Positions 1,471-39,690 of a stretch of DNA of 64,000 nt are shown here, in pieces; the stretch's first letter is position 1, and the number at the start of each line of letters is the position of its first letter. Under the pieces are notes generated by a model. That model searched no databases and was not told the origin of the DNA. It was given only the letters and a program-made list of their open reading frames with translations. Location: NCBI GenBank assembly GCA_030704615.1, contig CM060731.1, positions 58,528,001 through 58,592,000 on the forward strand. Reading direction: 5' to 3'. The position numbers were made by a program, and so were the translations under genes. This DNA comes from Takakia lepidozioides. Lineage: Eukaryota; Plantae; Bryophyta.

Positions 1471-1510
1471 CATATTAGTGGTATCTAAAAAAGTTACTAT
1501 TTTTTAAATC

Positions 1511-5149: not shown

Positions 5150-7590
5150 ATGAGATCGAAGGGAGGGCCTTTACACGCCAGGGCGGCACCCGGTGCTCCA
5201 AAAAGAAAAATAGGTGCGACGGCACATGGCGGACAGATGACGACCTTTGATGGGGGTGTGCTTTAATTGCATGGAGACTAGACACGTGGCCAAAAAGTGC
5301 CAGTTGAACGTGACAACGGCGACCACGGAGCTTTCCGAAGACTCCATCAACCGCTTGGTGGAGGCAGTGGTCACCAAGACTTTGCAAGGTAGGCGACTAC
5401 ACGTGTGAACCGGTTCCAGGAGGCTGGAACATCACATAGCGGAAGCCACTTCATGCTCATAAAGTTTTCAACGAGCACGTTGGTTACCAACACTGGTTTA
5501 TGTGATAGCATTGCTATCCATTAAGCGAGTTGAGTTTGAAGGCTGGGAGGAAAAGAAGGTGAATGTTTATCTGTCGCCGTGTGGCTTATCCCATTTATTT
5601 TCCGACCAGAATCAATCACATTCCCGTCGGACCTTCTTGTGGTTCAGCTCCGTACGCCCCTGTCTTTCACCCCTAAGGACATCCAAGAAGCATTTAGCCA
5701 TTTCAACTCGTTCAAAGTCTTGGTGGCCTCTCCTCCAACTTCCGCCTAGCCCATGGGGCCAGTCCCGCCACAAAGTTGAAGACCATTTCTGGTTTTGTCA
5801 TGTCCGCGACTTCAAACAACAACATTGAAAGCCTAAACATATCCTCGAATATCATTTGTTTTGCTTCAAGTTCCTCATTTTATCCTAGGCAAGCCAGCAC
5901 GCGGTGAGAGGTACAAACTGTTTTTTCATTAGTTCCTTGAACTCACCCCAACTCAAGAGCTCAGGGTTTGGCCATTGGTTATTAAGACGCTTCTGCCACC
6001 ATTGTTGAGCATAGCCCCTCAAATAGGTGGGAATCACTTCCACCCGATCCTCGTCACTCAGCTTGGCCGCCCGGAAGTATTGCTCCAGCTCCAAGAGCCA
6101 AGTGTTGAGTGCCCTCCGATTTCGGACGCCCTCGAAGGTGTCGGGTTCCTTAGGTTTCACCTTAAACTTCGCCTTAGGTTGAAGTGGCATTAGCCGCCCT
6201 CATCACGTCTTTCAACGTCCCGCCAAACTGTCACTACAACAGATCGCGGTATTTAAGACTGTATATATGACTATTCTACAGTCATAAACGGTACATATGA
6301 CTTCTATGACTGTAAGTCGTGCAAACCAAGTGAATACAATGAGTACAGGATAGTACGGTCCGGAGGACTACAGTCAGATGAACCAAGTGATATCTCTCAC
6401 TGCAGTCATATATACCATACTGCAGTCGCCGCTGTCGCGCCACGTGGCGAGACGCAATTGATTAAAAAAATTAAAATTAAAATTAAAATTAAAAAATTAA
6501 AAACATATGTCAGACGCCGCGTCGCACCGCATTGTGCCACGTGGCATAATGCATTTTATAATAATGAAAAAACCACATGGCAACCCATCTAGGGTACCAC
6601 GTGCTATCCCCAGCTTGCCTACTAACCCTAGGGCCATCTTATCCATTTGATTATACTTAGAGGAGTTTGAACCTGCAACCTCTTTACTATAAGAGTTATA
6701 GTTCACTACCTGCTAACCAATACACCCATTAGTCATTCATGTGATCATATGGTATTTTAATTGTATTATACACACCAAATTACAAAATCCCCAGTAGTCA
6801 TCATGACTATGTAACCTCATCCATGTACACTGTAGTCATGGAAATGACTATGAATGGTGAGCTAAATCTGGTCAATTGCCGTTGACCAGCCTTCCGCCCG
6901 TTCCGGAGCCATGTAGTCATTTATATGACTACAGTCGTATGAACGACTGCGGGAGGTCAAATTCATATAAAAACATAGTGCAGTCATAACCATGACGACC
7001 ACGGTTTGGCAGTCATAACTACCGCGATCTGTTGTAATGTGCACCAGAAGGCCTTCCCAGAAAGTTGGTGGCATTAGCGGCATCTGTTGGAAGGGCGGGT
7101 CTCTCGGAGAGTCCTCAGGCTCCAACTCCCCAAATGTTTCTTGCTCTTGAGCGGCCTTGCTTTCAGAAGCATAAATAGCCTTTTTTGTTTGTCGCTCCGG
7201 CATCACGTCGGCCCCACCGAGCTCACTAGGATCATCGGCTTTCGGGCCGTTACGCTTTTGCTTGGTCTTGCTCGGCCCCATGGTGAGGCCAATCCCAAGG
7301 GCGATCGCATACTGAACTCTAGGCTCTGATATCAAGTGTTGCGCACCTCACTTTGGTAAACTCCCCTTCAAGTCATAGTTACTCGCTTTGATGCGCGTGT
7401 CTAACTCCCAACCTGGCCGTCGGGCCAACTCGGAGCTTCGACTTCTCACCAGGGCATAACGGTCCCTATTGCTCCGTCATAGGACCCTCAAACTATCGGG
7501 CCCAATGGAAATTCCCTTTGATTGATGGCAATCCGGAATAGCTCCCACACCTTGGTCGCTTACTCACTAGCTTTTGGTCACTCAATGGGC
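5150..7590 (-). mobile_element. Relic of a chromovirus (partial 5' LTR, PBS, gag) related to the element at 26212-33177
   Basis: KPKEPDTFEGVRNRRALNTWLLELEQYFRAAKLSDEDRVEV is nearly identical to the gag at ~32 kb. A degenerate Met-PBS (GCTCTGATATCA) lies at ~7323, with the LTR from 7337. Gag piece 5150-5460 is flipped to the + strand. Confidence 0.9.
6232..7039. mobile_element. Non-autonomous CACTA (En/Spm) element
   Basis: TIR CACTACAACAGATCGCGGT / ACCGCGATCTGTTGTAaTG. 3-bp TSD TGT/TGC. Subterminal TAGTCAT/ATGACTA repeats. It interrupts the chromovirus gag. Confidence 0.92.
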
Positions 7591-9728: not shown

Positions 9729-11040
9729 AGCGACCGCTATCATGGCGGTTGCTACATTTAAAAAAAACAACAAAAAAACGACCGCCAGTAATAGCGGTCG
9801 CTCTATTTTTTTTTAAAAACAATAAAAGCCAGTAACGACGGTCGCTCTATTAAAATAAAAATTAAAAAAAAAACGACCGCCGTTACTGGCAGTCGCAACA
9901 TTTTTAGAAGTTAAAAATATACAAGCGACCACCAGTAATGGCGGTCGTTCTATTTAAATAAAAAAATAAAATAAAAGCGACCGCCATAACTGGCGGTCAC
10001 AGCATTTTCAGAAATTAAAAATATACAAGCGACCGCCAGTAATGGCCGTCGCACTATTTAAAAGAATAAAAAAACAAAAGCGACCGCCAATAATGGCGGT
10101 TGCTCTATTTTTGTTTTAACAAAAAAAATGCGACCGCCAATACTGGCGGTCGCTGCATTTTCAGAAATTAAAAATATACAAGCGACCGCCAGTAATGGTG
10201 ATCGGTCTATGTTTTTTTTTTTTTAAATGACCACCAATAATGGCAGGCGCTCTATTTTAAAAAATAAAAAATAAAAGTGATCGTCATCACTGGCGGTCGC
10301 TGCATTTTTAGAAATTAAAAATATACAAGCGACCGCCAGTAATGGCGGTCGCACTATTTATAAAAAATAAAAAATAAATGTGACCCAATTACTGGCGGTC
10401 GATGCATTTTCTGAAATTAACAGTATTTTTAATATTTTAAAATATTTTAAAATATTTTAAAATAAAGCGACCGCCATATTATGGCAGTCGCTGTTTTTTT
10501 CTTTTTTTCTTTTTTTTTCTTTTTAAATATATTTAAAATAAAGCGACCGCCATATTATGGCAGTTGCTGGTTTTTTTATTTTTAAAATAAAGCGACCGCC
10601 ATATTATGGCAGTCGCTGGTTTTTTTTAATATTTTTTTAAAATAAAGCAACCGCCATATTATGGCGGTCGCTTGCTTTTTATATATTATTGAAAACAAAC
10701 GAGTGTCAATTCTGGAGGTCGCTTGTTTTTTATATATTTTCAAAATTATGCGACCAATACGGAGGTCGTTATTTTTCTTTTTTAAATTAGACGACCGCCA
10801 ATGCGACCGCCAATTTTGTTTTTTTAATAATAAAAATTAAGCGAACGCCATGTTGGCGGTCGCTGTTATTTCTATAATTCCGAAATATAAAGCGATCGCC
10901 AAAATTGGCGGTCGCTCTTATTTCTAAATTTCCGAAATATAAAGCGACCGCCAGAATTGGCGGTCGCTTTCATTTTATTATTTTCCACGACGTGGCTGCT
11001 TAAGTGACAATATTTTACCTGGTACTTTTTTTTACTAGAA
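9729..11040. repeat. Second GCGACCGCC/GGCGGTCGC palindromic array ending in a degenerate CACTA-like terminus
   Basis: Same unit as 1511-3095. Ends TTTTTTTTACTAGaa, resembling the reverse complement of CACTAGTAAAA. Confidence 0.75.
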
Positions 11041-20199: not shown

Positions 20200-20719
20200 A
20201 AAATGGGGTTGATTGGGAAATTCACCAAATGGACGTGAAGACAGCCTTCCTCTACGGTGATTTGCATGAAGAAATCTTTATGTGTCAACCTAAAGGATTT
20301 GAGGACGGTGAGAAAGTATGGCCGTTGAAGAAGTCATTATACGGCTTAAAGCAAGCCTCCCGAAGTTGGTATGAAAAAATCGATGCATACTTGATTTCCA
20401 AAATGTTCATAAGAGGAGAGGCAGACCACATCGTCTACTTCAAAACGGGGAGAGACATGTTCATCATCTTGTTCGTGGATGATTTGATATTGGGCAAAAG
20501 CTTAGACAAGATGAACGTGGTGAATGAGGAATTGAGTCGGGCTTTTGAGATGGTCGATTTGGGTGTAGTGAGTTTCATACTAGGAATTCAGATTTTCAGA
20601 AATCGAGAGAAGAAGGAGATTCGGCTAAGCCAAACTCGCTACATCAAGAAGATCCTTGCTAGATTGAACATGGAGGAATCCAAAGCGGTCGCTACACCAA
20701 TGGAGGTTGGAAGCAGATT
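20200..20719 (+). mobile_element. Ty1/copia reverse transcriptase, 5' part (interrupted by the SDR element)
   Basis: WEIHQMDVKTAFLYGDL...LKKSLYGLKQASRSWY...LFVDDL...ATPMEVGSR. Confidence 0.95.
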
Positions 20720-21046
20720 TGTCAAGTTATTTTACCACTAGTGTGAAACTAGCTAGGAAATAGCTAGCTTTTACATATTGACATTTGGGATTGGCCCAAG
20801 TGTCAATCCAGGGGTCAAGGCAGATTTAGGCCCTGGAGTGGTTATCTTCACGGCAAGCGCGGAAGGCTCATCTTTCTCGAGTTGAGCCTCACCGCGCCTA
20901 GCTATGGCGCCGTAGTGTGGATTCCCCATGGCGTGGGGTGCACTTGGCTTGACTTGTATTTGAGTGATGAGGTTATATATGCATGAGTTTATGCTTCAGC
21001 TTTGTGAGCTCGCATGAGCTTGTGCTTGTATTCTTCTTTTTTATCA
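20720..21046 (+). repeat. Terminal repeat A1 (327 bp)
   Basis: Matches 36383-36709 with about 3 differences by eye. Confidence 0.95.
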
Positions 21047-21062
21047 CTCGAGAAAGATGAGC
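21046..21062 (+). promoter_or_regulatory. Putative self-priming primer-binding site
   Basis: ACTCGAGAAAGATGAGC is the exact reverse complement of 20866-20882 inside A1. There is no TGG tRNA-type PBS. Confidence 0.8.
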
Positions 21063-22469
21063 TCGTATCTGTGAGTGCCAAATACGAGTTAGTTGTAGCA
21101 CTTGTGGTTTTTGCTTGAGAATGAGAGAAACCAAGTTGTTATGCAAGGAGCACCGTGGAGCTCTTGGTTGTTAGAAGCGGAGGCGATGTGGGTTACGAGG
21201 TGGTAGACCTTGGCATTCGATCTTCAGCTTCAGAGATGAAAGCACCATGCTGCAGGTAATTCCAGAGCACCTTGATGGTTTCAGATTGTGTACATGCATG
21301 AGCAAGCACGATTGGGAAGAGGACCAGTCAAGAACAGATTATAGTGGCTTTGGTGGCAAAACTGAGAACTGGACTTGGGAATGCGAGCTTTCATTGTGTG
21401 AAGGATTGCAAGACCAAGCGAAAGGGCTGATTTGGTTTGGGGCAAATCAGTGCACTTTGTGGAGTATGGTGAGATTGGGTTTCAATCTCGAGCTTCAGCA
21501 TTGAGAGGGCTCTTGTCATGGCAAGAGCAGGGCAGGAACAGGAGCTAAGAGGTGCGGTAAGGCCATGGAATGTGCACCTAGGGTTTCAGAGCTTGGAAGA
21601 AGAGCTCTTGCACCACAAGAGAAGTGTCTTGTGGCTGGAAATGTAAGCCTTAGGGTTTCAGGAGCTTGGCAAAGGCTGTGGAGTGCTTAGTCTTGTCTTA
21701 GAGAGCATCAAGGAGCCAAGGAGCCAAGATAGGGGGCTGATATCTCTTGTGTGAAGAGGTTGCATGTGTGGAGCATGTATTCAGCTCATTGAAGCTTCCA
21801 TCTTCAAGCTAGGAGGGCAAGCAAGGAAGTGGGAAAGGCTGACTTCCCTTATGCGAGGGCAATGCATGTGTGGAGCATGCTATCAGCCTGATGAAGGCTT
21901 GCACTTTCAGGTTTGTGGGTGCAAGAAATGAAGCAAAGGAGCTGATTCTCTTATGGTGAGAGTGGGGCATGTGTGGAGCATGCCTTCAGCCCATTGAGGC
22001 TCTTGTTTTCAAGCTTTAGAGAGCTAGAACAGAAGGTCTAGGGCTGGTTTCCACTTGGAGTGAAAGAAAAGCACTTGTAGGGCCTATGTGAGTTGGGGTT
22101 TCAACTTCAAGCTTGAAGGGAGCGCAACTCTTGAAGCAGCAGGTGTAGGGGGCCGAAATAGGCTCTAAGACAGATGTTATGGCCAAGGAGAGTGCTTGAA
22201 TGAGTGCTCACAAGGGCTGGGAACCAGCAGGGCTTGGTTGTTTGCCATTGAGTTTAGTGGCGTGTTTGGGGAGGCTAAGTGAGAAAGAAGGCTTGGTTTG
22301 TGGCAACCACCTCATGGCTTAGGGCTACTATGGTGGTGTGTGGGAGCCGAAAGAGCAAGAATACCTTGTTGATTTCCTCACAGCCGCCATAGCTCGGTGG
22401 AAAGAAGCCTAGAGTCCAAGAGACACAAACCCTAGCTTGGCGTGGCTAAACTGCTAGAGCGGCCATGGA

Positions 22470-24480
22470 TGGGGCTGTGACGGGCTGTGACGGGCTGTGT
22501 CAGGCCGTGCCTGAGGCCTGTGGGGCTGTGAGGGGCTGTGAGGGGCTGTGACAAGCTGTGCCAGTAGCATGTGGGGCTGTGACGGGCTGTGGCGGGCTGT
22601 GCCCTGTGGCCTGTGGGGCTGTGACGGGCTGTGCGGGGCTGTGACAAGCTGTGCCCAGTGGCCTGTGGGGCTGTGACGGACTGTGCGGGGCTGTGACAGG
22701 CTGTGCCCAGTGGCCTGTGGGGCTGTGAGGGGCTGTGAGGGGCTGTGACAGGCCGTGCCTAAGGCCTTTGGGGCTGTGATGGGCTGTGAGGGGCTGTGAC
22801 AGGCCGTGCCTGAGGCCTTTGAGGCTGTGACGGGCTGTGACGGGCTGTGACAGGCCGTGCCTGAGGCCTTTGGGGCTGTGACGGGCTGTGAGGGGCTGTG
22901 ACAGGCCGTGCCTGAGGCCTTTGGGGCTGTGATGGGCTATGAGGGGCTGTGTCAGGCCGTGCCTGAGGCCTGTGGGGCTGTGACGGGCTGTGAGGGGCTG
23001 TGACAGGCTGTGCCCGTGGCCTTTGGGGCTGTGAGGGCTGTGACAGGCTGTGCCCAGTGGCCTGTGGGGCTGTGACGGGCTGTGCGGGGCTGTGACAGGC
23101 TATGCCCAGTGGCCTGTGGGGCTGTGACGGGCTGTGCGGGGCTGTGACAGGCTGTGCCCAGTGGCCTGTGGGGCTGTGACGGGCTGCGAGGGGCTGTGAC
23201 AGGCCGTGCCCATGGCCTTTGGGGCTGTGACGGGCTGTGAGGGGCTGTGACAGGCCGTGCCTGAGGCCTTTGGGGCTGTGACGGGCTGTGACGGGCTGTG
23301 ACAGGCCGTGCTTGAGGCCTTTGGGGCTGTGTCGGGCTGCGCCGGTGGCCTTCGGGGTCGTGACGGGTTGTGAGGGCCTGTGACGGGCTACGCCGGTGGC
23401 CTTGGGGGCTGTGAGGGGCTGTGACAGGCCGTGCCTGAGGCCTTTGGGGCTGTGACGGGTTGTGAGGGGCTGTGACAGGCCGTGCCTGAGGCCTTTGGGG
23501 CTGTGACGGGCTGTGAGGGGCTGTGTCAGGCCGTGCCTGAGGCCTTTGGGGCTGTGACGGGCTGTGACGGGCTGTGACAGGCCGTGCTTGAGGCCTTTGG
23601 GGCTGTGTCGGGCTGCGCCGGTGGCCTTCGGGGTCGTGATGGTTGTGAGGGCCTGTGACGGGCTACGCCGGTGGCCTTGGGGGCTGTGAGGGGCTGTGAC
23701 AGGCCGTGCCTGAGGCCTTTGGGGCTGTGACGGGTTGTGAGGGGCTGTGACAGGCCGTGCCTGAGGCCTTTGGGGCTGTGACGGGCTGTGAGGGGCTGTG
23801 TCAGGCCGTGCCTGAGGCCTTTGGGGCTGTGACGGGCTGTGAGGGGCTGTGTCAGGCCGTGCCTGAGGCCTTTGGGGCTGTGACGGGCTGTGACGGGCTG
23901 TGACAGGCCGTGCTTGAGGCCTTTGGGCTGTGTCGGGCTGCGCCGGTGGCCTTCGGGGTCGTGACGGGTTGTGAGGGCCTGTGACGGGCTACGCCGGTGG
24001 CCTTGGGGGCTGTGAGGGCTGTGACAGGCCGTGCCTGAGGCCTTTGGGGCTGTGACGGGTTGTGAGGGCTGTGACAGGCCGTGCCTGAGGCCTTTGGGGC
24101 TGTGACGGGCTGTGAGGGGCTGTGTCAGGCCGTGCCTGAGGCCTGTGGGGCTGTGACGGGCTGTGAGGGGCTGTGACAGGCTGTGCCCGTGGCCTTTGGG
24201 GCTGTGAGGGGCTGTGACAGGCTGTGCCCGTGGCCTTTGGGGCTGTGAGGGGTTGTGACAGGCTGTGCCCATGGCCTTTGGGGCTGTGACGGGCTGTGAG
24301 GGGCTGTGTCAAGCCGTGCCTGAGGCCTTTGGGGCTGTGAGGGGCTGTGACAGGCTGTGCCCAGTGGCCTATGGGGCTGTGACGGGCTGTGACAGGCTGT
24401 GGCGAGCTGTGACGGGCTTTGAGGGGCTGTGACAGGCTGTGCCCAGTGGCCTGTGGGACTGTGACGGCTGTGACCAGTGA
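22470..24480 (+). repeat. G-rich minisatellite (GGGCTGTGAC/G decamer; ~40-50-bp higher-order units)
   Basis: About 2 kb of tandem units in the 5' leader of the SDR element. Confidence 0.97.
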
Positions 24481-25196: not shown

Positions 25197-26211
25197 TTGA
25201 GTGTCAATACGGAGGTGCCACTAGTTGCTGGGGACAGTGCCGGTTCGAGCACTAGCGATACTAGTGGGTACACAAGACGAGGTGTGCGGTTTAGGCCACC
25301 TTCACCTCCTGTGTCTTCCACGGAAGGTTCTGATTCGGATTGTGAATCAGGAGGACTCATACCGGCGGTGCAAGTTGTTTATTTGCCATTGTTGTGGGAC
25401 ACAATGGAGGAGATGTATGGAGCTACCAAGGGGCCACGAAGGTACTCTGGGGCGGTGGGCACCATCGAGTTGGATGATTTTATCCAAGAGTTTGATAGTT
25501 GGTGTGATTTGCAGCAAATGCGCAATCCACAACTATTTACGCTGTTCATGGCATGGAAAGGGCTGTTTCAGCACCTTGAGGGGCCGCCTATGGATGATTA
25601 CCATGAGTTCAGGCAGGGGCATGAGGATGAGATCGAGGAGTGGAGGATGTACTGGTCACCCGACTATGTCTCCATCACTAGGGCACTAGAGCCACGAGGG
25701 CAGTGGCTACACCTGCCGCTGCACCGGCAACTTCAGCAAGTAGCAGAGGGACTAGTGGGACTGGTGGTACAGTAGCTACGACGTCCACCCAAGCCACTAC
25801 CGCACCAGCACTAGTACCCGTGCCTGCCTTCAACCATGTTGTGGAGTTCTTCGAAGAGTTGAGAGGGAACTACCAAGGGGTGAGGACAGAGAAGTTGCGG
25901 AGCTTGCAAGAGTTCCAACGGAAGCCGACCGAGAGCTTGAGGGAGGCTTTCACTCGCATGAGGCGCTTGATAAATGTAACCCAAGGGGTTACGGAAGCTC
26001 AGGCAGTCCAATTCTGGTATGGGATATTGGACAAGGAGCTGAGGAGAAGGGTGCGGGATGCAACTCTCCTACAAGCGGCCCAACCCACCTTAGCAAATGT
26101 GTTTTTGCTGGCAGAGCGGATAGAACTCAACATGGTGGAGGAACGAGTGGTCATGGTGGGATTTGCTAAGGAGACACCATGGGGTAGTGGTGCTCCTAGC
26201 CAACCACTACC
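25197..26211 (+). pseudogene. gag, 5' part, of the SDR element (frameshifted)
   Basis: ELDDFIQEFDSWC...LRSLQEFQRKPTESLREAFTRMRRL is a retrotransposon capsid-like motif. Confidence 0.75.
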
Positions 26212-26934
26212 TGTCGTGCACCTCCCTTCGGTAAGCTCCCCTTCACGTCATAGTTACTCGCTTGATGCGCGCGCCTGACTCCCAACCTGGCCGCCGGGCC
26301 AACTTGGAGCTTCGGTTGCTCACCGGGACATAACGGTCCCCCTTCGCTTCCCACTAAACCCTCCACCTATTTGGGACTAGTGAAATTCCCTTTGGTAGAT
26401 GGCAGTCTGGAACAGCTCCCCACTCTTTGGTCGCTTTCCGGCTCGCTCGCTTACTCATTAGTTTTTGGTCACCAACAGGCTTGCACCGTTCTCGGGGTTA
26501 CTACTCCCTATATATACTTCTGTAGCTGTCCGCGGGGGTTTCACAACCAGCCATGCCATTTTATGGCGAACCACCACGAAAACCCTCGACTCCCGGTGAT
26601 GAGTCGCGGTGAGTCTTGGCCCACTCACCATGGCCCTTATGGACCGTGATGAGTCCCAAGACTCCCCACGACTCCCACCACGAGGTCTCCGCCCCCATGG
26701 TGAGTCCTATGCCACCCCCACTAAGTCCCACTAAGCTACCACCACCCCTTGTGGAGCCACCCCCACCGCAACCCGGTGTGCGGGGCTCCACCTAGTGAGC
26801 GCCTCCGCCTCCTTGAGTGCCTTGGGCACTCAAGGGTGCTTCAGCCCCCCATACCTATCGCTGCCGCTGCCCCACCACAGGGGCAGCTCCTCATGTGTCC
26901 CGACCCCCTGCCCTCAAGGCAAAGGGCCGCGACA
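26212..26934 (-). repeat. Chromovirus 3' LTR
   Basis: Direct repeat of 32450-33177. Confidence 0.95.
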
Positions 26935-27784
26935 CACACCCCTACCAACAGGGAGTCGATGTCCTCATCGACTTGTCCATTTTGTAGAAACGAACATCCA
27001 AGTTGTGGCGTCCCACATCAAGGAGTTTGTTTCCGCACCATGGCGTCCCATGGCAAAGAACCAAACCCCACACTTGACTCTACTCTCCACTAGCTAGTTC
27101 GGCCGACTTCCTCCAAGTCCCGGCCAAGGGTGGAGCCTCTCCAGCTCCTCCCAGTGCACTCTTCTTGGCCTACTTCAAGGCCAAGGAACGATCCTCCCCG
27201 AGGATCGAATCGCCTTACTGCAACAACATTGCTTGCGATCGCTCATGATGCCGCTTTTGGCATCACCTTGAGCAAGGGTTCCCTGGAACCCTCTTTGACT
27301 AGGAAGATAACCTTGAACCAACCGTGCGCCCCAATCACTACAATTGGGTCCGCCTTGGAATGTTGGCCTGAGGTACGGGAACACGCCGAAGCCGCACTAC
27401 GACTTCGTCCCGAGGCTACACGATTATAGTACGTGAACGGAAGCACGTAGCTTCCGCGTTAGCCCGCACTACAAGGCAACCCCCTCGGTAGCGCAGTTAT
27501 AGTACGCGCACGCGCCAGGTGCGCACTAGCATGTGAACTCCCAAAGAAGTCGCAAGTTTCCTTGCCCCTTGGATGGGGGTCACCCGATTTTGGCACTACG
27601 CAAACACACGATTAACCCAATTTACCTCTCCCACTTTTATAAGCTAGCATGCATTCTACACACTAGCCAACCATACCATGCATCACCATTCCAAACAAAA
27701 TAGGACGTACAATATTTGGAACCCATTTCTTTTTTAACAAATTTTTGTACAATACAAGTTTTTGTAATCGGATTCCTAAGCTAG

Positions 27785-30700
27785 CTAAGCCGGGCTAAGC
27801 ATGCATTTCCTCCCCCACGCTCCAAGGTTGATGTCCCCATCAACGCTTCTTCCGCTTTTGAGGTCGCCCTTCGAAAACTGCACCGCCTCGGATGCGTTTC
27901 CCATTTCTGAGGCACGCACCCAAGATGCCTCCACATGATGATAGCCCTTCCATTTGACGAGATACTCCGTTTCTCGGTTCCTGAACCTCCTCGACTTAAG
28001 TATTGCCTCCACCTCGTACTCAGGTTCATTCTCATGATCCAACAGCATAGGTGGCGGACGCAACACTTGATGCCGATTCGGACGCGCTTCATCTTTGAAG
28101 TAAGGCTTCAAAAGGGAGACATGAAATACTGGGTGCACCTTGCTGTTTGCCGGTAGCTCCAATTCATACACATCCTCATTCATAACCTTCCGAATGCGAA
28201 AGGGTCCCGCATACGGAGGTACGAACTTTGGACTCACTTCCGGAGGTAGTCGGAAATTCTTGATGTTCAACCAGACCTCTGTGTCTGCCTCAAACTTTCA
28301 CTTCCCTCCGCTTCCGATTCGCCTGCCTTTCATACCGTTTCCTGGCTTTGGCAATGTTGTACTTTGCGAGCTTCAACAAACGCTCGCGTTCTTCCAATAC
28401 CGCCGCTACTGCCGGTTCTTCGACGTCCTGGGCGGCCCAACTTGTCGGCACCATAGGTGCTTTTCCATAGACCAATACGAAAGGGGAAACTCCCGTTGCG
28501 GAGTGTTCTGTGTTATTATAACAGAACTCTGCCGCGTCTAAGTGTTCCACCCAGTCTGTTTGGTCTGCCGACACGTAATTCCGCAAGATCTGCTTCACTA
28601 CGGAATTCACTCTTTCTGTTTGGCCGTCGGTCGTAGGTCGGAAGGCGGTGCTCATCTTCAGCCTCGTCCCCATCTTCTTCCAAAGTTGCCTTCCAAAATT
28701 TACTCGTAAACTTTGGATCGCGGTCCGAGACAATATCCTTCGGGACTCCATGATGCTTTAAGACGTGGGCGAAGTAAAGTCGCCCTGTCTCCTGCGCCGT
28801 TGCCGTCTCCTTGGTGGGGATGAAATGGCCCATTTTACTGAACCTATCCACCACCACCATGATTGCATCGAATCCTTTTGATAGCGGCATAGCAGTCATG
28901 AAATCCATCGAGACGCTTTCCCAAGTCCCCTCTGGAATCGGCAAGGGTTGTAACAGCCCCGCTTGCTTTTTGTACTCGCTCCGGTTTTGTTGGCATGTGG
29001 TGCATGTCTTGACATACTCCTCTGCCTCCTCCCTCAGTTTGGGCCAGAAATACTCTTTCTTCAAGAGTGCCGCAGTGCGCTTGGCTCCGCCGTGGCCCGC
29101 AAGCGGGCTATCATGGCATTCTCTCAAGAGGCTATCTCTGATCCCTCCCTTCGGCACGTAGAGACGTTTTTGCTTATACCGGAGCAGTCCATTTTGCAAG
29201 TGGAACTGCGATTTAACCCCCATCCTCAAGTCCTGCATCACGGACTTCGCCAGCTCATCCTTCCGGCAAGCCTTCCGGATCTTCCTTTGGAGCGCCGTCT
29301 CGCCCTTGTACACCAACAAGAGCTGCTGCTTTCTACTTAAAGCATCGGCCACCACGTTGTCTCGTCCCGGTTTGTACTGGATATCCACGTCGAACACTGC
29401 CAAAGTATCTTGCCACCTAAGTTGTTTTGGGGACAACTTGGGCTGCGTGGCAAAATATTCACCGTGACATTGTCCGTGAACACCTTCACTGGGTTGAAAC
29501 CAACATAGTGGCGCCAAAGCTCAAGACAATGCACCACCGCCTTCATCTCTTTTTCGTGCGTCGGCCACCGTCGCTCCACTTCATTCAGTTTCTTACTTTC
29601 GTAAGCCACTGGACGTCCATCTTGCATCAGTACACCCCCAATCGCGAAGTCCGACGCATCTGTATGTATCTCGAACGGACGATCGAACTCCGGGATTTTC
29701 AAGACTGGAGCTTCCGCCATCCGCTGCTTCAATTCAGCAAAAGCTTGGCCACAAAAGTGTTCCATGCCCAGACTTTAGATTTACACAGAAGGTCTGACAG
29801 CGGCCCCGCATCTTGGCAAAATTTCTCACATACTTCCGGTAATAGGAGGCGAGTCCTAGGAAGGATCGCACTCCCGGGACCGAAGTCGGAGGCTCCCAGT
29901 CCAAGATCGCCCTCACCTTTCTGTCATCCATTTTGATCCCATCCTGTGTAATCACATGCCCCAAGAACTCCACTTTCGTGACCCCGAATTCGCATTTGAA
30001 GCTTTGGCATACAGCTTCCCTTCCCGCAACTTTTGGAACACCCTTTTGAGGTGCTCCAGGTGTTCCTCCTTTTTTTCGAGTACACCAAGATGTCGTCGAT
30101 GTACACGATCACAAAGTCATCCAACCACTCCTGAAAAAGGCTGTTCATCAGCGTGCTAAAGGTCGCCGGTGCATTAGTGAGCCCAAAAGGCATCACCAAG
30201 AACTCATAAGAACCATACCTTGTCCTGCACGCGGTCTTCTCCTCATCTCCTTCCGCCACCCGAATTTGATGATAGCCGGAGCGCAAGTCGATCCGGCTGA
30301 AATACTTCGCTCCTGCCAACCGGTCGAAAAGGTCGTCGATCCTTGGCAAAGGGTACCGGTTTTTAATAGTCACCTTATTCAAAGCCCTATAATCGACACA
30401 CATCCGCAGCGTCCCATCCTTCTTGTCTGCGAATAGCACCGGGGCTCCGTAAGGTGACTTACTCGGCCGGATGTACCCCTTTGACATTAGATCCTTGAGC
30501 TGAGTTTTCAGCTCGACCAACTCCTGTGGCTCAACCGGTAGGGTGCCTTGGCAGGCGGTTCCGATCCCGGTATCACCTCAATCTTGTGGTCAACTCCTCT
30601 TCGCGGTGGCAAGCCGCTTGGTAAATCCTCCGGCATCACATCCTGGTATTTCTCCAAGATCCCCTTGATCCAATCTGGGCTCGGCTCCCCATCGCCTTCT

Positions 30701-32394
30701 CCCTTCACTTCTCTAATGTAAAGCAAAAACTGGGGCTCGTGTGCCTCCTCCACGGCCCACTCCCTTGCTGACAGAAGGTTTATTCGCCCTCCCACGGATT
30801 TGGGCGTTTCCGACACTCGTAAGGCCTCGCCACCATTCCCACATGGCAGCGTGACTACTCTCTTGCGGCCATCTATGACCGCTCCGGATTTGCTAAAAAG
30901 GTCATCCCCAAAATGAGATCCACTCCATCGATCTCGCAGATGGTGAAGTTCTCACGTCCCTCCCAACTCCCCAGTTGAAGAGGAACATCAAACGCCAACC
31001 TTGTCGCCAACTGTGGTTCTCCTTTGGCAGAACACACCTCAATAGAGGCCCCCACGTCACTTGTCGGGAGTCCCAACTTTCGCGCCGCCGCCGGCGTCAT
31101 GAAGGAGTACGACGCTCCTGTGTCCACCAACAACGACACGTTAGTTCCGGATAGTATCCCATCCACGAACAATAACTGACTCCCTTTACGCAGGGCGCCA
31201 GTTTCCTGATGCAACTCACAAGAATAGTTGCTTACCTTGCAAGTCCTGGCAACCACCGCTTCCACAAGCGACTGATGGTATCTTCCGACAGCTCCGTGGT
31301 TGCCCGAGTCATGTTCAATTGTCGAGGTTTCGTGCACTTCTTGGCCATGTGCCCGGCTCCCCGCAATTGAAACACACTCCATCAAAGGTTGCCTTCTGTC
31401 CGCCATAAGCCGCTCCACCCGCTTTTCCTTTCGAAGCACCGGGTGCCGCCTTGACGTGTGAAGGCCCTCCCTTCAATTTCCACGTGCCATTGTCGCCGCG
31501 TGGCCTATCCCACTTCTTTTCCGGTCGGAAGGAGTCACCTTCCCGCCGGGTCTTCTTGTGGTTCAGCTCCGTACGGCCTTGTCTCTCACCCCTAGGGACA
31601 TCCGAGAAACATTCAGCCCTCTCAATTGCCTCGTTCAAAGTCTTGGGTGGCTTCTCCTCCAACTTCCGCCTGGCCCATGGGGCCAGTTCCACCACAAAGT
31701 TGAAGACCATTTCTGGTTCTGCCATGTCCGCGACTTCGAGCAACAGCACATTGAAAGCCTGGACATACCCCCGAATGTCATCTGTTTGCTTCAAATTCCT
31801 TATCTTGTCCCGGGCAAGCCAGGACGCGTTGAGGGGCACAAACTGTCTCTTCATCAATTCCTTGAACCCACTCCAGTTCAAGGTTTCCGGGCTTGGGCCT
31901 CGGTCGTGAAGGCGTTTCTGCCACCATTATTGAGCATAGCCTCTCAAATAGGTGGGAGCCACTTCCACCCGATCCTCGTCACTCAACTTGGCCGCCCGGA
32001 AGTACTGCTCTAGCTCCAGGAGCCAGGTGTTGAGTGCCTTCCGATTTCGGACGACCTCGAAGGTGCCGGGTTCCTTAGGCTTCACTTTAAACTTTGCCTT
32101 AGTGGAAGTGGCATTAGCCGCCTTCAACACGTCTTTCAACGTCCCGCCAAACTGCGCCAACAACCCTTCCCAAAAGGCTGCCGGCATGGGAGGCATCTGT
32201 TGGTCGGTCGGAGCTCTCACGGTTTCCTCGGGCTCCGACTCCTCGGATTCCTCCCGCACTTGAGCGGCCTCGCTTTCAGAAACCTGCGTCGCTTCCTCAA
32301 ACGGCCGCTTCGGTGACACGTCGCCCCCATCGGGCTCACCAGGATCATCATCTTTTGGGCCGTTCCGCTTTCGCTTTGGCTTGCCCGACCCCAT
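27785..32394 (-). pseudogene. Chromovirus gag-pol (frameshifted)
   Basis: CFNCGEPG knuckle, LVDTGAS protease, YIDDIL RT, TDASDFAIG RNase H, H..GH..C..C and SMDF integrase, GPF motif, YEVEAILKSR...YLVKWKGY chromodomain. Confidence 0.95.
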
Positions 32395-32449
32395 GATGAG
32401 GCCAATCCTAAGGACGATCGCGTACTGAACTCTAAGCTCTGATACCAAG

Positions 32450-33177
32450 TGTCGCGCACCTCCCTTCGGTAAGCTCCCCTTCACGTCATAGTTACTCGCT
32501 TGATGCGCGCGCCTGACTCCCAACCTAGCCGCCGGACCAACTTGGAGCTTCGGCTGCTCACCGGGACATAACGGTCCCCCTTCGCTTCCCACTAAAACCC
32601 TCCACCTATTTGGGACTAGTGGAATTCCCTTTGGTAGATGGCAGTCCGGAACAGCTCCCTACTCTTTGGTCGCTTTCCGGCTCGCTCGCTTACTCACTAG
32701 TTTTTGGTCACCAACGGGCTTGCACCGTTCTCGGGGTTACTACTCCCTATATATACTTCTGTAGCTTTCCGCGGGGGTTTCACAACCAGCCATGCCATTT
32801 TATGGCGAACCACCACGAAAACAATCGACTCCCGGTGATGAGTCGCGGTGAGTCTTGGCCCACTCACCACGGCCCTTATGGACCGTGATGAGTCCCAAGA
32901 CTCCCCACGACTCCCACCACGAGGTCTCCGCCCCCATGGTGAGTCCTATGCCACCCCCACTAAGTCCCGCTAAGCTACCACCACCCCTTGTGGAGCCACC
33001 CCCACCGCAAACCCGGTGTGCGGGGCTCCACCTAGTGAGCGCCTCCGCCTCCTTGAGTGCCTTGGGCACTCAAGGGTGCTTCAGCCCCCCATACCTATCG
33101 CTGCCGCTGCCCCCACCACCACAGGGCAGCTCCTCATGTGTCCCGACCCCCTGCCCTCAAGGCAAAGGCCCGCGACA
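32450..33177 (-). repeat. Chromovirus 5' LTR
   Basis: Adjacent to the Met PBS; direct repeat of 26212-26934. Confidence 0.95.
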
Positions 33178-33684
33178 CTATCTCAACGTGCTCAAGGCAA
33201 CAAGGGGGCTCAGGTGAAGCTCAGGGAAGGGCAGAGAGGACCTCAGATGCAGGGGTCTCTCCCTTCATTTGCTGGCCAACAACGGGCGGAGGTGGTGTGC
33301 TGGACATGTGGAGGACCCCATGTCAAGAAGGATTGCCCAGAGGGAGGCAAAGGATCGGCACATGCACAGCCTGCACAGTTGCAGTGTGGGCATTGTGGCA
33401 AGCACGGGCATGGAGAGGCCCAGTGTTATGGTTTGCATCCTGAGTTGCGCCCAGGCCAGTTCCAAGGGAACAATGGTGGCCGGGGGCGAGGTGGAGCAGC
33501 CCAGAGAGGACGAGGTGGCCAGCCACGAGGCCAAGGGCAAGCTCAACGTGGCCAAGGACGCGGAGGTCAGGGTGTTGACGAAGGCATGGCCAACCGGCTT
33601 CAGCAGCTAGAGCAGAGGCTCGCTGCCATGGCTACAGCTCAGGTCATACCCTCTAAGGCCGGATGGTCCACCTCCTGCTCCTGA
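33178..33684 (+). pseudogene. gag, 3' part, of the SDR element (two CCHC zinc knuckles, RGG-rich)
   Basis: CWTCGGPHVKKDC and CGHCGKHGHGEAQC, followed by GGRGRGG repeats. Confidence 0.85.
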
Positions 33685-34228
33685 GGGAGGAGATATGGGA
33701 GGCATGGGATTCATGTGTGGAGCAGCACTACCACTAGTGCAGGTGGAGTCTGCTGCAGCCGTGACTCGAGGAGCAGCACGAGTTCCTGAGCCACGAGGTG
33801 CAGAGGTGGAGTTGGATCCACAGCGTGGGGAGGCAATCCGTCAGGCTAGGCTTCCTCAGTCATTCACATTGGCGGGACAGTGTCGACGCCATCCATGGCA
33901 CCTAGTTCTCGCCCGACAGTTATCGAGGCGGAGGTTACTATGCCATTGGGGAGAGCTATACGGGTAGCACCACTACCTAGTGTTGCCAAGGCTGCGGCAG
34001 CTAGTGTGCTGCTAGGAGCGGCCACATCTGTGTGCCAGGCTCCATTGTTCTCGGCTACCATGATTGCGACGCCAGGGGTAAAACCAGCTGAGGTGTTCAG
34101 TCTGGCAGCTACACTCTGTGAGAGTGGGGAGGTTACTTCATCTTCTGTGGAGATAGTGGGAGGTGTAGTGCCGGAGGGATCCTCGGATTTGAGGGTCAAG
34201 ACTGCCATGGCAAGCTGCAGCTGCCAGG

Positions 34229-34700
34229 TTGATGGAGCTGCCAGCTAGGCCAGCCATTGAGCGCGCCATGGTGACACCTGGAGTTGTCATGTTAGACAAC
34301 CAGGATGGCATTTTCTGTTTGAGTGGACCGGCAGGCAAGAGGTACCGGCCACTGCGGGTCTTGTTGGACTCGGGAGCTCAGCCATTGATGCTGGGCAGAG
34401 CTGCTATTGCAGGCTTGGGCCTCACGGAGGCGGATATGGAGCCTTGTCATTTTCAGATACAGACGTCTCTGGGAGGATCGGAGCAGGCTCGGGGCATGAC
34501 ACGGCGTGAGTTGGCTATCAGACTACGGCCGGATCACCCTACAGATGGCTCAGTGATGCGAGCCAAGGCCATTGTGACAGACGCGGTCTCATACGATGTC
34601 CTGGTTGGTGGGGCAGTGTTGTATCCTATGGGCTTCACCCTGGATTTTTGGGAGGAGTCAGCTTCCTATAGGTCTGCATGGCAGTCAGGGAAGGGTCGGC
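34229..34700 (+). pseudogene. Retroviral-type aspartic protease of the SDR element
   Basis: VLLDSGAQPLML catalytic motif and YDVLVGG C-terminal motif. Confidence 0.85.
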
Positions 34701-35072
34701 GTGTGCAGCTTCCTATGACGTTCATAGGAGGAGTTGCGGTTGCCCAGCGAGACAAGATGCCGACACTAGCAGCATTCACAGCGGCAGTGAGTTGGCCTAG
34801 AGAGTTGCTTGAGGGCAATGCTCATTCAGAGGATGTACCACCTCCGGAGAGCAGGATGACATGTATGGTATGGCGGAGTTGCCTACCATGGTTTGCTCAG
34901 ACTCCATTGTGGGGCACGAGCAAGGATTTGCAGCGGGATGCTGATCGACGGGTGCAACAAGCCTGGGTGAGGCTTTTGTACCGTCAGGAGAGGAGGAGAG
35001 TGTGGGGATTGCACCAGGACCACCTCAATTGTTTCCATTGGACACCACACCTAATTGTGTGGCAGTATCCGG

Positions 35073-35457
35073 ATGAAGGCATTTGTCTTCTGGACTTGTT
35101 TGGCGGGATCAGCACCGGATTGGCTGCTGTGTTACAAGCAGGTGTACGAGTTCGGTGTTACCTGTATGTGGAGAGGGATGAGACTGCATGACGCGTTTCA
35201 CTTCGTCATGTTGCTCAGTTGGTGCAGCGGTACCCTGAGTTGTTGTCGGTGTCTGCAATTCGTGGATATCAGCAGGCCTTGCCAGCAGACATTTCGTTGC
35301 TGGGGGCGCAGGATTTGGAGCGGGTTGGCTCCATTGATCTGGTAGTGGCAGGTTGGCCCTGCCAAGGGCATTCATCAGCCGGGCATGGCAATGGATTGCG
35401 AGACTCGAGGTCGGGTCTGTTTTGGGAGATGGTGCGGGTTTTGCGCTACTTGCAGCT
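35073..35457 (+). pseudogene. Dnmt3-like DNA cytosine-5 methyltransferase domain (N-terminal half) in pol
   Basis: Motif I LDLFGGISTG, motif II YVERD, motif IV DLVVAGWPCQGHS (catalytic PC), motif V GLRDSRSGLFWE. One in-frame TGA at 35189. Truncated before motif VI. Confidence 0.9.
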
Positions 35458-35987
35458 TCGAGAAAGTCATGCCCATGGCTTTTGAGAATCTTGCCATTGC
35501 ACAGCACCGTGATACGTTGAGGTATGCCACTATACGTGGTGGAGGATATCGTCCTGGGGTTCGGAGGTTTAGCCCTGGTGACTATGTTTATTTGCAGCAG
35601 ACTGCTCCTACGACTCTGGATGTTACTGCAGGGCGTGTTATTCTGAGGGTTCGAGAGGTGTTGCCCTCAGGGGTCCTGATCTTAGAAGGTCGGGATGGCA
35701 TGACTTGGAAGGACCATGTGCGTAATTGTGCGCCATGTCACTTTCCCAATGTCAATGGCAGAGTTGACCCAAATTTGGCAGTGGTACCTGCAGGTTTGAG
35801 GTGCATGCTCTGTGGGTCTGCCAAAGGGGCAACCACCATGCCGGTGTGTGATCGATGCTCAAGGGGTTGGCATATGGGATGCTTGACACCACCTCTTGAG
35901 AAGGTTGGTTGTGTCCACACTGCTTGGGATAGTGGCAGTGGACATGACTGGAGGCAGCTAACAAGACATGGGAGGCCAAGCTCATAG
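35458..35987 (+). pseudogene. Integrase C-terminal region plus PHD finger
   Basis: AFENLAIAQHRD...RRFSPGDYVYL resembles the gypsy post-integrase region. CMLC...CDRCSRGWHMGCLTPPLEKV continues as WLCPHC in a shifted frame, completing a C4HC3 finger. Confidence 0.85.
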
Positions 35988-36181: not shown

Positions 36182-36191
36182 AGGGGGGCGA
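36182..36191 (+). promoter_or_regulatory. Polypurine tract of the SDR element
   Basis: AGGGGGGCGA immediately precedes repeat B1. Confidence 0.75.
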
Positions 36192-36898
36192 TTGTGTGGA
36201 CTAGTGACTGCCATAGTGGGCAGCATAGTGGCAGCCTAGTGACTGACTAGTTGTAGCCTAGTGGTTGGACTAGTGGCTGGACTAGTGGTGGACTAGTGGT
36301 ATACTAGTGTGTGGTGTGCACATGTGTTGTGTGGTTTTGGACAACGATGTAGTTGTGTAGCGATATGTATGCGCACGACAGCTGTCAAGTTATTTTATCA
36401 CTAGTGTGAAACTAGCTAGGAAATAGCTAGCTTTTACATATTGACATTTGGGATTGGCCCAAGTGTCAATCCAGGGGTCAAGGCAGAGTTAGGCCCTGGA
36501 GTGGTTATCTTCACGGCAAGCGCGGAAGGCTCATCTTTCTCGAGTTGAGCCTCACCGCGCCTAGCTATGGCGCCGTAGTGTGGATTCCCCATGGCGTGGG
36601 GTGCACTTGGCTTGACTTGTATTTGAGTGATGAGGTTATATATGCATGAGTTTATGCTTCAGCTTTGTGAGCTCGCATGAGCTTGTGCTTGTATTCTTCT
36701 TCTTTATCATTGTGTGGACTAGTGACTGCCATAGTGGGCAGCATAGTGGCAGCCTAGTGACTGACTAGTTGTAGCCTAGTGGTTGAACTAGTGGCTGGAC
36801 TAGTGGTGGACTAGTGGTATACTAGTGTGTGGTGTGTACATTTGTTGTGTGGTTTTGGACAGCGATGTAGTTGTGTAGCGATATGTATGCGCACGACA
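36192..36898 (+). repeat. Terminal repeats B1 (36192-36380), GC, A2 (36383-36709), B2 (36710-36898)
   Basis: B1 and B2 are both 189 bp with about 4 differences by eye. A2 matches A1. Confidence 0.95.
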
Positions 36899-37562
36899 GA
36901 TTCAACAAGGAGATGGAACCAAAAACAACGAAGAAGAACGATGAAATGAAAAATGTTCCGTACAAGTGTGGAGTTGGAAGCCTCATGTATGCGATGGTGG
37001 CTACAAAACCAGACATTGCATTTCCAGTGAGTACTTGGGAGGTACATGCAGAATCCTGGCAAGGAACTCTGGCAAGGAGTTAAAAGGGTGCTTCGCTATT
37101 TGAAAGGTACACAAGAAGTGTGCCTTACGTACAAAAGAATTGATTGTGGTGAAAACCTGATCGTAGAGGGTTACAGTGATACAGACTGGGGAGGGGATCT
37201 TGACGAAAGAATATCTACTTCTGGATATTGCTTTCTACTTTGCGGAGGAGCTGTAAGTTGGAATAGTAAACGCCAAGCTACAGTAGCACTGTCGTTGACT
37301 GAGGCGGAGTATATGGCCGTGACATATGCAACGAAGGAAGCTATGTGGTTGCGAAAGTTGCTTGCAGACTTGGGTTTCACTCAAAAGGAAACCAACAAGA
37401 TTATTAGTTGACAACCATGGCAGTATACAACTCGCGCGAAACCTTGTACACCATGTTCGGACGAAGCATATAGATATTCGACACCATTTCATCAGGGAAA
37501 AGCTCGAGACAGAAAGTATATGGGCGTTCGTTTGAACAATCTGAACAGTACTTGAGTGGGAG
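36899..37562 (+). mobile_element. Copia RT C-terminus, RNase H and PPT (frameshifted)
   Basis: PYKCGVGSLMYAMVATKPDIAF...GYSDTDWGGDLDERISTSGY...[28 protein letters not shown]. Confidence 0.95.
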
Positions 37563-39269: not shown

Positions 39270-39690
39270 TCCCACTTGTTGCGATAGTTGCGACCGACAT
39301 TGACGTAGAAGAGAGCAGGTTCTTTTATTTCATTCAAGGTCTTTGTGTTCTGAACGATTTTGAGACCCCCAAATATATATTCCAAAGCTTATAGTGGCCA
39401 GGCTTGTCTTCCCCACAGTTGTGTGAGGCAGAGGCATGGAACTGTCAAAGTAATCACTGTACATGGACATCCCTCGCTTCGACTCACATACAGGTAGAGC
39501 TAATCTCACCACTGGGTCCTTCGCATTCTTCGCCTGGATTTTTTTGTCCGTATGCTGCTCCAGTGGTAGAGTCGACTTCTCTATCAACCTATCCCACCCT
39601 ACTATTACCACAAGGCATGTATCTCGTTTAGGTGGGCATAATGAACTCAAGTAACTACTTTGTTCTCATTATGTGGCATGGAAAAGGTGG
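39270..39690 (-). pseudogene. Frameshifted fragment copy of exon 3 of the gene at 58152-60420
   Basis: VIVGWDRLIEK...QHTDKKI.A...KDPVVR...ESKRGM...PHTTVGKTSLA is near-identical to ~58590-58990. Confidence 0.9.

What the first reader, a model, noticed from the sequence alone, without database searches (positions are those of the whole stretch)
20865..21062. tRNA-independent self-priming signal with an alternative hairpin
Seen: the 17 nt at the A1 boundary (21046-21062) are perfectly complementary to 20866-20882, oriented so the 3' end points into the repeat. The same segment also sits in a competing stem-loop, AGGCTCA-[12 nt]-TGAGCCT. Established: Tf1/sushi-type elements self-prime using the transcript 5' end. 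Inference: transcription starts near 20866, and the two folds may form a priming switch.
Basis: partly seen in the sequence, partly recalled or inferred. Interest (0 to 1): 0.72.

Follow-up and report, generated by a model that had tools for sequence, protein, structure and literature searches.

The report
Self-priming split-repeat Gypsy retrotransposon
This plant jumping gene and a distant moss relative each carry a primer site that pairs with their own terminal repeat using different letters, so the lineage likely starts copying itself with its own RNA instead of a tRNA, a known trick not found in print for this lineage, while the proposed hairpin switch is not supported.

Summary
The 17-nt complement (20866-82 / 21046-62) and the hairpin are real (0 of 3000 shuffles reach 17 nt). 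They lie in the left repeat of a non-autonomous, DNMT3- and PHD-carrying Gypsy element with split repeats (A…PPT-B-GC-A-B, 4-bp TSD), kin of KnitGypsy-Dnmt3, not a chromovirus. Self-priming is well supported: no TGG tRNA site; a moss family whose repeat does not align by BLASTN keeps its own primer/PBS pair, with 6 of 12 columns changed, all compensated. The needed duplex is probably 12 nt (20870-81 with 21047-58), not 17: about 19-26% of family depth breaks pair 13 uncompensated, and moss copies break at pair 12 of an 11-nt core that starts 29-31 nt after a TATA. The start site is inferred; no RNA data. The switch is not supported: the priming fold wins by about 12 kcal/mol, and the hairpin's 5' arm lies upstream of the inferred start. 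Self-priming is known (Tf1, Tcn1, TAR); I found no report for this lineage. The scan described the split-repeat layout before on other DNA; no note I saw covered its priming.

The parts
20720..21046 (+). Repeat A1 (TG...CA): left end of the element; holds the inferred promoter end, R and U5
   Evidence: 99% identical to 36383-36709; family contigs show varied flanks or B-GC before 20720
20870..20881 (+). Inferred self-primer (12 nt, predicted 5' end of the RNA); complementarity in this copy runs 20866-20882
   Evidence: start site inferred, not measured
21047..21058 (+). Primer-binding site abutting A1 with no gap; complementarity in this copy runs to 21062
   Evidence: no TGG; 21059 varies uncompensated in 19-26% of depth
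20857..20897 (+). Local hairpin (arms 20857-70 and 20883-97) with most of the self-primer in its 12-nt loop; 5' arm upstream of the inferred start
   Evidence: commoner family alleles at 20863-64 pair better
20946..20953 (+). GGCTTGAC: predicted partner of TGAGCC (20883-88), the second helix of the priming fold
   Evidence: in the minimum-energy folds of both families; motif in 16 of 21 moss loci; no covariation seen
22450..24480 (+). Tandem array of about 51-nt units in the long 5' leader (limits approximate)
   Evidence: families D1-D3
25404..26211 (+). gag, 5' part (frameshifted), interrupted by the nested element
   Evidence: tblastn 71-76% to Marchantia protein P0003; Retrotrans_gag E 8.5e-4
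26212..33177 (-). Nested chromovirus (separate element) with an ordinary TGGTATCAGAGC primer site
   Evidence: Chromo, RVT_1, rve hits; PBS; near-matching 5-bp TSD
33179..35482 (+). gag 3' part with zinc knuckles, aspartyl protease, truncated C5 cytosine methyltransferase (DNMT3-like)
   Evidence: PF00145 E 1.1e-10; 54% to P0003 over 438 columns
35430..35906 (+). Integrase C-terminal part with PHD finger; RT, RNase H and integrase core are missing from this copy
   Evidence: PHD E 3e-5; 72% to P0027 residues 437-597; no RT hit in the host element
36182..36191 (+). Polypurine tract AGGGGGGCGA, same in the moss family
36192..36380 (+). Repeat B1
   Evidence: 186 of 189 identical to B2
36377..36386 (.). 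Palindrome GACA-GC-TGTC at the B1/A2 junction, the likely integrase attachment site
   Evidence: same junction in the moss family
36383..36709 (+). Repeat A2, with a second copy of primer (36533-44) and hairpin but no PBS after it
36710..36898 (+). Repeat B2: right end of the element; joined to A2 as CA plus the first base after the PPT
   Evidence: 40 contigs with varied flanks after the B end
20716..20719 (+). Target-site duplication GATT (second copy 36899-36902) inside a copia RT gene
   Evidence: RVT_2 E 2e-43

Best explanation
The finding is the likely self-priming signal of a split-repeat, DNMT3/PHD-carrying Gypsy lineage: the RNA is predicted to start at about A20870, and its first 12 or so bases would pair with the site right after repeat A1 and be cut free to prime reverse transcription without a tRNA. 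Inferred steps: the leader folds as a three-way junction (primer:PBS, TGAGCC:GGCTTG, U5 stem); RNase H from an intact relative cuts near G20881/U20882 as in Tf1; minus-strand DNA begins at the terminal A of A1 and transfers to A2; plus strand begins after the PPT. The copy's repeat is therefore B-GC-A, and the A2/B2 junction is the joined pair of cDNA ends. The local hairpin is real but mostly needs bases upstream of the inferred start, so it is unlikely to act as a switch on the genomic RNA's 5' end.
For: Shown: 17-nt match, 0 of 3000 shuffles. No TGG within 8 nt of the repeat end, while the nested chromovirus has one. Moss family, 21 distinct loci: PBS positions 1-11 match the family's own LTR primer in 17-20 of 21 each, 17 of 21 loci have at most one mismatch, position 12 matches in 4 of 21. 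Between families 6 of 12 columns differ and all are compensated; own duplexes -16.6 and -13.5, swapped -3.3 and -5.0 kcal/mol; the two A repeats give no BLASTN hit to each other. Own family: 21059 G>C at 19%, 26%, 21% of depth in three runs of one sample, no matching change listed at 20869. TATA to primer start 29-31 nt in all 10 moss loci where both motifs were found. A2/B2 junction has no PBS and resumes at the first base after the PPT in the window and 7 of 7 assessable moss loci; one rearranged moss insertion keeps 9-11 PBS bases there (L035 = L049). Established: Tf1 uses its first 11 bases, cut by RNase H (PMC7175516, passages).
Against: No RNA evidence: the one raw RNA run laid gave 0 reads and the guessed-RNA contigs show no start. 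Only two independent families were compared. In the moss family PBS positions 13-16 and 18-20 (TG plus a T run) also pair with the LTR in 13-19 of 21 loci, so a 20-nt leader is possible and primer length is not settled. The window has no good TATA (TATCTTC, 27 nt before A20870). Most copies of the window's family keep 16 pairs, more than a 12-nt primer needs. 16 variant rows were hidden. Host tRNAs and small RNAs could not be screened. This copy lacks RT and RNase H.
Confidence: 0.8

Rival explanations
1. Self-priming plus a regulatory hairpin: transcripts that start upstream of about 20857 fold the local hairpin first and are held off, or delayed, from priming; only transcripts from the proper start prime.
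For: A strong hairpin overlapping the primer exists in both families (1 and 8 of 1000 shuffles). The commoner alleles at 20863-64 pair better than this copy (-32.5 vs -27.6 kcal/mol for the majority allele). GGYTYA is kept in 18 of 21 moss loci. It would form before the PBS is transcribed. Start-site control of priming is shown for Tf2 (PMC5341516, passages).
Against: The PBS fold wins by 11.6-12.9 kcal/mol and dominates for all nine starts tried. The primer sits in the open loop here, and upstream sequence hides it no more than shuffled sequence does (126 of 300; moss 11 of 300). The register differs between families (loop here, 3' arm in moss). The 3' arm's conservation is also explained by its pairing with GGCTTG in the priming fold. 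No covariation in the stem.
Confidence: 0.1
2. The pairing is structural (packaging, dimerisation or strand transfer) and a host RNA, such as a tRNA fragment or small RNA, is the real primer. The loop's palindrome CTCGAG could serve as a kissing-loop dimer signal.
For: Host tRNAs and small RNAs were not screened; the loop holds a 6-nt palindrome.
Against: The PBS letters differ between families and track each family's own repeat, which a shared host primer would not give. No TGG. No Rfam match beyond E 2.4. The moss primer has no CTCGAG palindrome.
Confidence: 0.06
3. The complement is a relic of a template-switch or inverted-duplication event with no role in priming.
For: Loop inversions and deletions in this hairpin region occur in several moss copies (L021, L034, L049, L056).
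Against: Same position, zero gap to the repeat end, same GAGT-TGAGCC frame and compensated changes in two unalignable families; no other primer site is present.
Confidence: 0.04

Closest known systems
Tf1/Tf2 (S. pombe), Tj1 (S. japonicus) and the Tf1/sushi group (PMC7175516, PMC4600332, PMC5341516; passages read)
   Same: PBS abuts the 5' repeat and pairs with 11-12 bases inside it; no tRNA site; further helices next to the primer duplex (the Tf1 U5 stem papers were seen only as titles in a reference list).
   Different: Not a chromovirus: PHD finger, DNMT3-like domain, split repeats, 4-bp TSD; clade RT outside the sampled chromoviruses. Priming is shown by experiment for Tf1, only inferred here.
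KnitGypsy-Dnmt3 of Klebsormidium nitens (de Mendoza 2018, PMC5890265; term passages incl. most of section 9 and the Fig. 4 legend; figures and supplements not seen)
   Same: Gypsy domains with a Dnmt3-like methyltransferase and DIRS-like repeat order; Klebsormidium proteins fall in the same RT clade (100/97).
   Different: The paper's main text has no occurrence of 'primer binding', 'PBS', 'self-prim' or 'polypurine'. This copy is from a land-plant-type lineage (closest named proteins Marchantia, Calypogeia, Sphagnum) and lacks RT/RNase H/integrase core.
Plant Tcn1 (Ty3/gypsy) and TAR (Ty1/copia) lineages (Neumann 2019, PMC6317226; passages, section 9, supplement 3 read)
   Same: Self-priming predicted by the same criterion (at least 10 nt complement starting 0-5 nt after the LTR): 83% of Tcn1, 89% of TAR.
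   Different: Tcn1 has a chromodomain in 100% and 5-bp TSDs; TAR is copia. No non-chromovirus Gypsy lineage in that table is listed as self-priming (Phygy tRNA-Trp, Selgy tRNA-Ala).
Gypsy-7a_cRei of Chlamydomonas reinhardtii (PMC9940879; passages)
   Same: Active Gypsy with a PHD finger and sub-divided LTRs.
   Different: No priming site is discussed ('PBS' and 'primer' 0 occurrences); its sequence was not compared here.

Membership tests
Self-primed LTR retrotransposons (mechanism) | PBS within 0-5 nt of the 5' repeat and complementary to at least 10 nt inside it | tested here: met
   0-nt gap, 16 nt after the repeat end
Self-primed LTR retrotransposons (mechanism) | No tRNA 3'-end site (TGG) after the repeat | tested here: met
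Self-primed LTR retrotransposons (mechanism) | No match to a half-tRNA or other host small RNA | not testable with these tools
   no host genome; no tRNA in the window; Rfam only chance hits
Self-primed LTR retrotransposons (mechanism) | Complementarity kept through sequence change | tested here: met
   6 of 12 columns changed, all compensated, but only two families
Self-primed LTR retrotransposons (mechanism) | Primer is the 5' end of the transcript | tested here: inconclusive
   TATA spacing fits in moss; no RNA starts obtained
Self-primed LTR retrotransposons (mechanism) | RNase H cut frees the primer, which is extended | not testable with these tools
   needs biochemistry
Tf1/sushi group and Tcn1 (chromoviruses) | Chromodomain at the integrase C-terminus | tested here: not met
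   PHD, no chromodomain, in the window and in 4 of 6 relatives scanned; none of the 6 has a chromodomain
Tf1/sushi group and Tcn1 (chromoviruses) | RT inside the chromovirus clade | tested here: inconclusive
   25 clade RTs form their own group (100/97) apart from 18 plant and algal chromovirus RTs (98/95), but Tf1, sushi and Tcn1 were not sampled and the window's own RT is deleted
Tf1/sushi group and Tcn1 (chromoviruses) | Two full LTRs and a 5-bp TSD | tested here: not met
   A...B-GC-A-B with 4-bp TSD
KnitGypsy-Dnmt3-like clade | Dnmt3-like C5 methyltransferase in a Gypsy polyprotein | tested here: met
   PF00145 E 1.1e-10, truncated
KnitGypsy-Dnmt3-like clade | Repeat order A-coding-B-A-B | tested here: met
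   family-wide ends in contigs
KnitGypsy-Dnmt3-like clade | RT groups with Klebsormidium members | tested here: met
   by proxy: moss relative's RT groups with P0084 and P0115; gag-PR-DNMT links the window to that relative
DIRS/PAT/Ngaro split-repeat elements | Tyrosine recombinase instead of DDE integrase | tested here: not met
   6 of 6 relatives scanned carry rve and H2C2 integrase domains, none a recombinase

The most novel reading that the evidence does not exclude
A green-lineage Gypsy clade outside the chromoviruses evolved self-priming on its own; clean removal of its self-primer yields joinable cDNA ends that integrase ignores in favour of an internal palindrome, and a hairpin straddling the start site lets only correctly started transcripts prime, while read-through transcripts are kinetically trapped.
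Probability: 0.12. Interest if true: 0.75.

Novelty: new variant of a known kind. Interest (0 to 1): 0.45.

Why it matters
Self-priming itself is not new: it is proven for Tf1 and predicted for 12% of surveyed plant elements. What this adds is the primer for a lineage whose replication has not been described in the papers I could search: DNMT3-carrying Gypsy elements with split repeats. Fixing the primer site and the PPT fixes where the cDNA should end, which shows that the true repeat is B-GC-A and that the A2/B2 junction is a join of cDNA ends. That makes the circle-integration model testable with exact sequence predictions. It is also probably one more independent origin of tRNA-free priming, here in a non-chromovirus Gypsy.

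Tried and rejected
No host genome is held, so copies could not be surveyed whole. No RNA holder was listed; the raw RNA run X13 gave 0 reads, which is no test; X12 contigs (RNA only a guess) show no start. Searches for further families failed: viral contigs gave nothing for three protein queries; a motif scan gave 28 loci, 0 with a primer/PBS pair; one search gave 63 loci, 4 unrelated gypsy-type (checked) and 59 weaker, 29-35% identical hits that I took for plant pararetroviruses by size and identity (7 used only as tree outgroup); genome contigs gave 2 bacterial methylase hits. All 80 metagenome loci that had an A repeat belonged to one family, so covariation rests on n = 2. My own idea that the hairpin hides the 3' copy of the primer was tested and not supported here (126 of 300 shuffles) and only weakly in moss (11 of 300). 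A one-off re-insertion was rejected: the split ends are family-wide. A generic inverted-repeat scan of the loci mostly returned chance pairs. The Tf1 U5-stem paper was not held.

Full report
Observation. The two 17-nt segments, 20866-20882 and 21046-21062, are perfectly complementary. Repeat A1 runs 20720-21046 and recurs at 36383-36709 with 3 mismatches, so A21046 is the repeat's last base and the site after it starts at 21047 with no gap. With the repeat shuffled, 0 of 3000 trials gave 17 nt beside the end (best 15, once). The stem-loop is present and extends to 20857-20897.

The element. The order is A1, primer site, a leader with a 51-nt tandem array, gag (cut by a nested chromovirus at 26212-33177), protease, a truncated C5 methyltransferase (PF00145, E 1.1e-10), an integrase C-terminus with a PHD finger, PPT, then B1-GC-A2-B2, with a GATT duplication inside a copia RT gene. 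RT, RNase H and the integrase core are missing, so the copy is non-autonomous. The closest named proteins are from Marchantia, Calypogeia and Sphagnum. The split ends are the family norm: 40 contigs leave the B end into varied flanks, and 15-30 contigs enter the A start from varied flanks or from B-GC. De Mendoza 2018 (PMC5890265; passages and the Fig. 4 legend seen, figures and supplements not) drew this repeat order for KnitGypsy-Dnmt3. It is the only paper in the library holding that name, and its main text does not mention a primer site. Its supplement, which I did not open, could bear on this. The scan has described the layout many times on other DNA; I had written the circle reading before seeing those notes, and they are not independent support.

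Test of self-priming in a second family. A metagenome scan gave 80 loci. The 24 with an A1 repeat (21 after dropping 3 duplicates: L003, L057, L072) are one moss-type family whose RT is identical to a Sphagnum protein over the part aligned. Its A repeat gives no BLASTN hit to the window's, yet it has the same frame: primer ending GAG, then T-TGAGCC, and a PBS starting CTC straight after the repeat's CA. PBS positions 1-11 match the family's own primer in 17-20 of 21 loci each; 11 of 21 loci are exact and 17 of 21 have at most one mismatch; position 12 matches in 4 of 21. Against the window, 6 of 12 columns differ and each change is compensated; own duplexes are -16.6 and -13.5 kcal/mol, swapped ones -3.3 and -5.0. 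Neither family has TGG at the site, while the nested chromovirus does. This is two independent families, not a survey; four further scans found no others (motif scan 53).

Primer length and start. In the window's own family 21059 G>C makes up 19%, 26% and 21% of contig depth in three runs of one sample, with no matching change listed at its partner 20869; no variant was listed for 21047-21058, though 16 rows were hidden. Loose ends show two more PBS forms that break after 12 and 14 nt. So the kept duplex is 21047-21058 with 20870-20881. In moss the 11-nt core begins at an A after a T, 29-31 nt from the TATA in all 10 loci where both motifs were found, like Tf1's 11-nt primer (PMC7175516, passages). 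Against: the window has no good TATA; most copies keep 16 pairs; and in moss PBS positions 13-16 and 18-20 (TG plus a T run) also pair in 13-19 of 21 loci, so a 20-nt leader from the A of GGCTCA is possible. No RNA start was obtained.

Ends of the cDNA. In the window and in 7 of 7 assessable moss loci the A2/B2 junction carries no PBS and resumes at the first base after the shared PPT. That is what joining of a cDNA bounded by this PBS and this PPT would give, so the copied repeat is B-GC-A. One rearranged insertion keeps 9-11 PBS bases at that junction (n = 1, suggestive only). Exact 4-bp TSDs are seen in L029, L034, L049, L056, L072 and L074.

The hairpin. It is stable (1 of 1000 shuffles here, 8 of 1000 in moss; segments chosen post hoc), and the commoner alleles at 20863-64 pair better than this copy, so it may be maintained. 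But it does not behave as a switch in the tests I could run. The PBS fold had pair probability of at least 0.98 at the pairs tested for all nine starts from 20820 to 20870, and forcing the hairpin cost 11.6-12.9 kcal/mol. The register differs between families. The 3' arm TGAGCC is also used in the priming fold, pairing with GGCTTG in U5 in both families (motif in 16 of 21 moss loci; no covariation). Hiding of the 3' primer copy was not supported here (126 of 300) and weak in moss (11 of 300). A kinetic trap on read-through transcripts is not excluded; start-site control of priming is known for Tf2 (PMC5341516, passages).

Membership. It works like Tf1 but is not a Tf1/sushi or Tcn1 member: no chromodomain, split repeats, 4-bp TSD. 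In an RT tree of 53 rows (220 columns, none dropped) 25 clade RTs including Klebsormidium form one group (100/97) apart from 18 chromovirus RTs (98/95); Tf1, sushi, Tcn1 and Athila/Tat were not sampled and the window's RT is represented by the moss relative, so independent origin is likely, not shown. Neumann 2019 (PMC6317226; passages, section 9, supplement 3) predicts self-priming for 12% of plant elements, in Tcn1 (83%) and TAR (89%), and lists no non-chromovirus Gypsy lineage with it. Paper searches listed no report of priming in this clade; most subscription papers are outside the library. Also seen as passages: PMC4600332, PMC9940879, PMC2864245.

Verdict. Observation confirmed. Self-priming likely (0.8), with a shorter primer than stated; switch unlikely (0.1). 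A known mechanism in a lineage where it was not found in print, useful because it pins the cDNA ends of an element with unexplained split repeats. Interest 0.45.

Noticed in passing
window 26212-33177 (-): Nested chromovirus with about 725-nt LTRs (97% alike), a chromodomain and an ordinary Met-tRNA-type PBS (tRNA label recalled), inserted in the gag of the host element.
   Followed up: partly
window 20202-20719 and 36903-37411 (+): Copia RT/RNase H gene split by the insertion; the frame reads on across the GATT duplication.
   Followed up: partly
window 20875-20880: The hairpin loop holds the palindrome CTCGAG, like a kissing-loop dimer signal; not kept in the moss family.
   Followed up: partly
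L049:15785-16066 and L035:5538-5819: One rearranged moss insertion (same locus in two assemblies, TSD CACA) keeps 9-11 bases of PBS sequence between A and the terminal B, as expected if the primer was copied before the ends joined; n = 1 and the copy has an inversion.
   Followed up: partly
L010, L016, L034, L056, L074: Moss copies with only A...PPT-B and no A2-B2; L034, L056 and L074 have exact 4-bp TSDs. Either one-repeat circles or B1/B2 recombination.
   Followed up: partly
window 1440-3080 and 9730-11000: Arrays of about 50-nt units with the palindromic core GCGACCGCC...GGCGGTCGC in AT-rich sequence; perhaps ends of a DNA transposon.
   Followed up: no
window 22450-24480: GC-rich tandem array of 51-nt units (10-nt subunits) in the element's 5' leader; the moss relatives have a much shorter leader (about 1.2 kb from A1 end to gag in L004, L029).
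   Followed up: no
window 5572-7561 and 39272-39692 / 58584-58994: An older fragment related to the nested chromovirus (79-86%), and an 88% alike repeat pair 19 kb apart that may be LTRs of another element.
   Followed up: no
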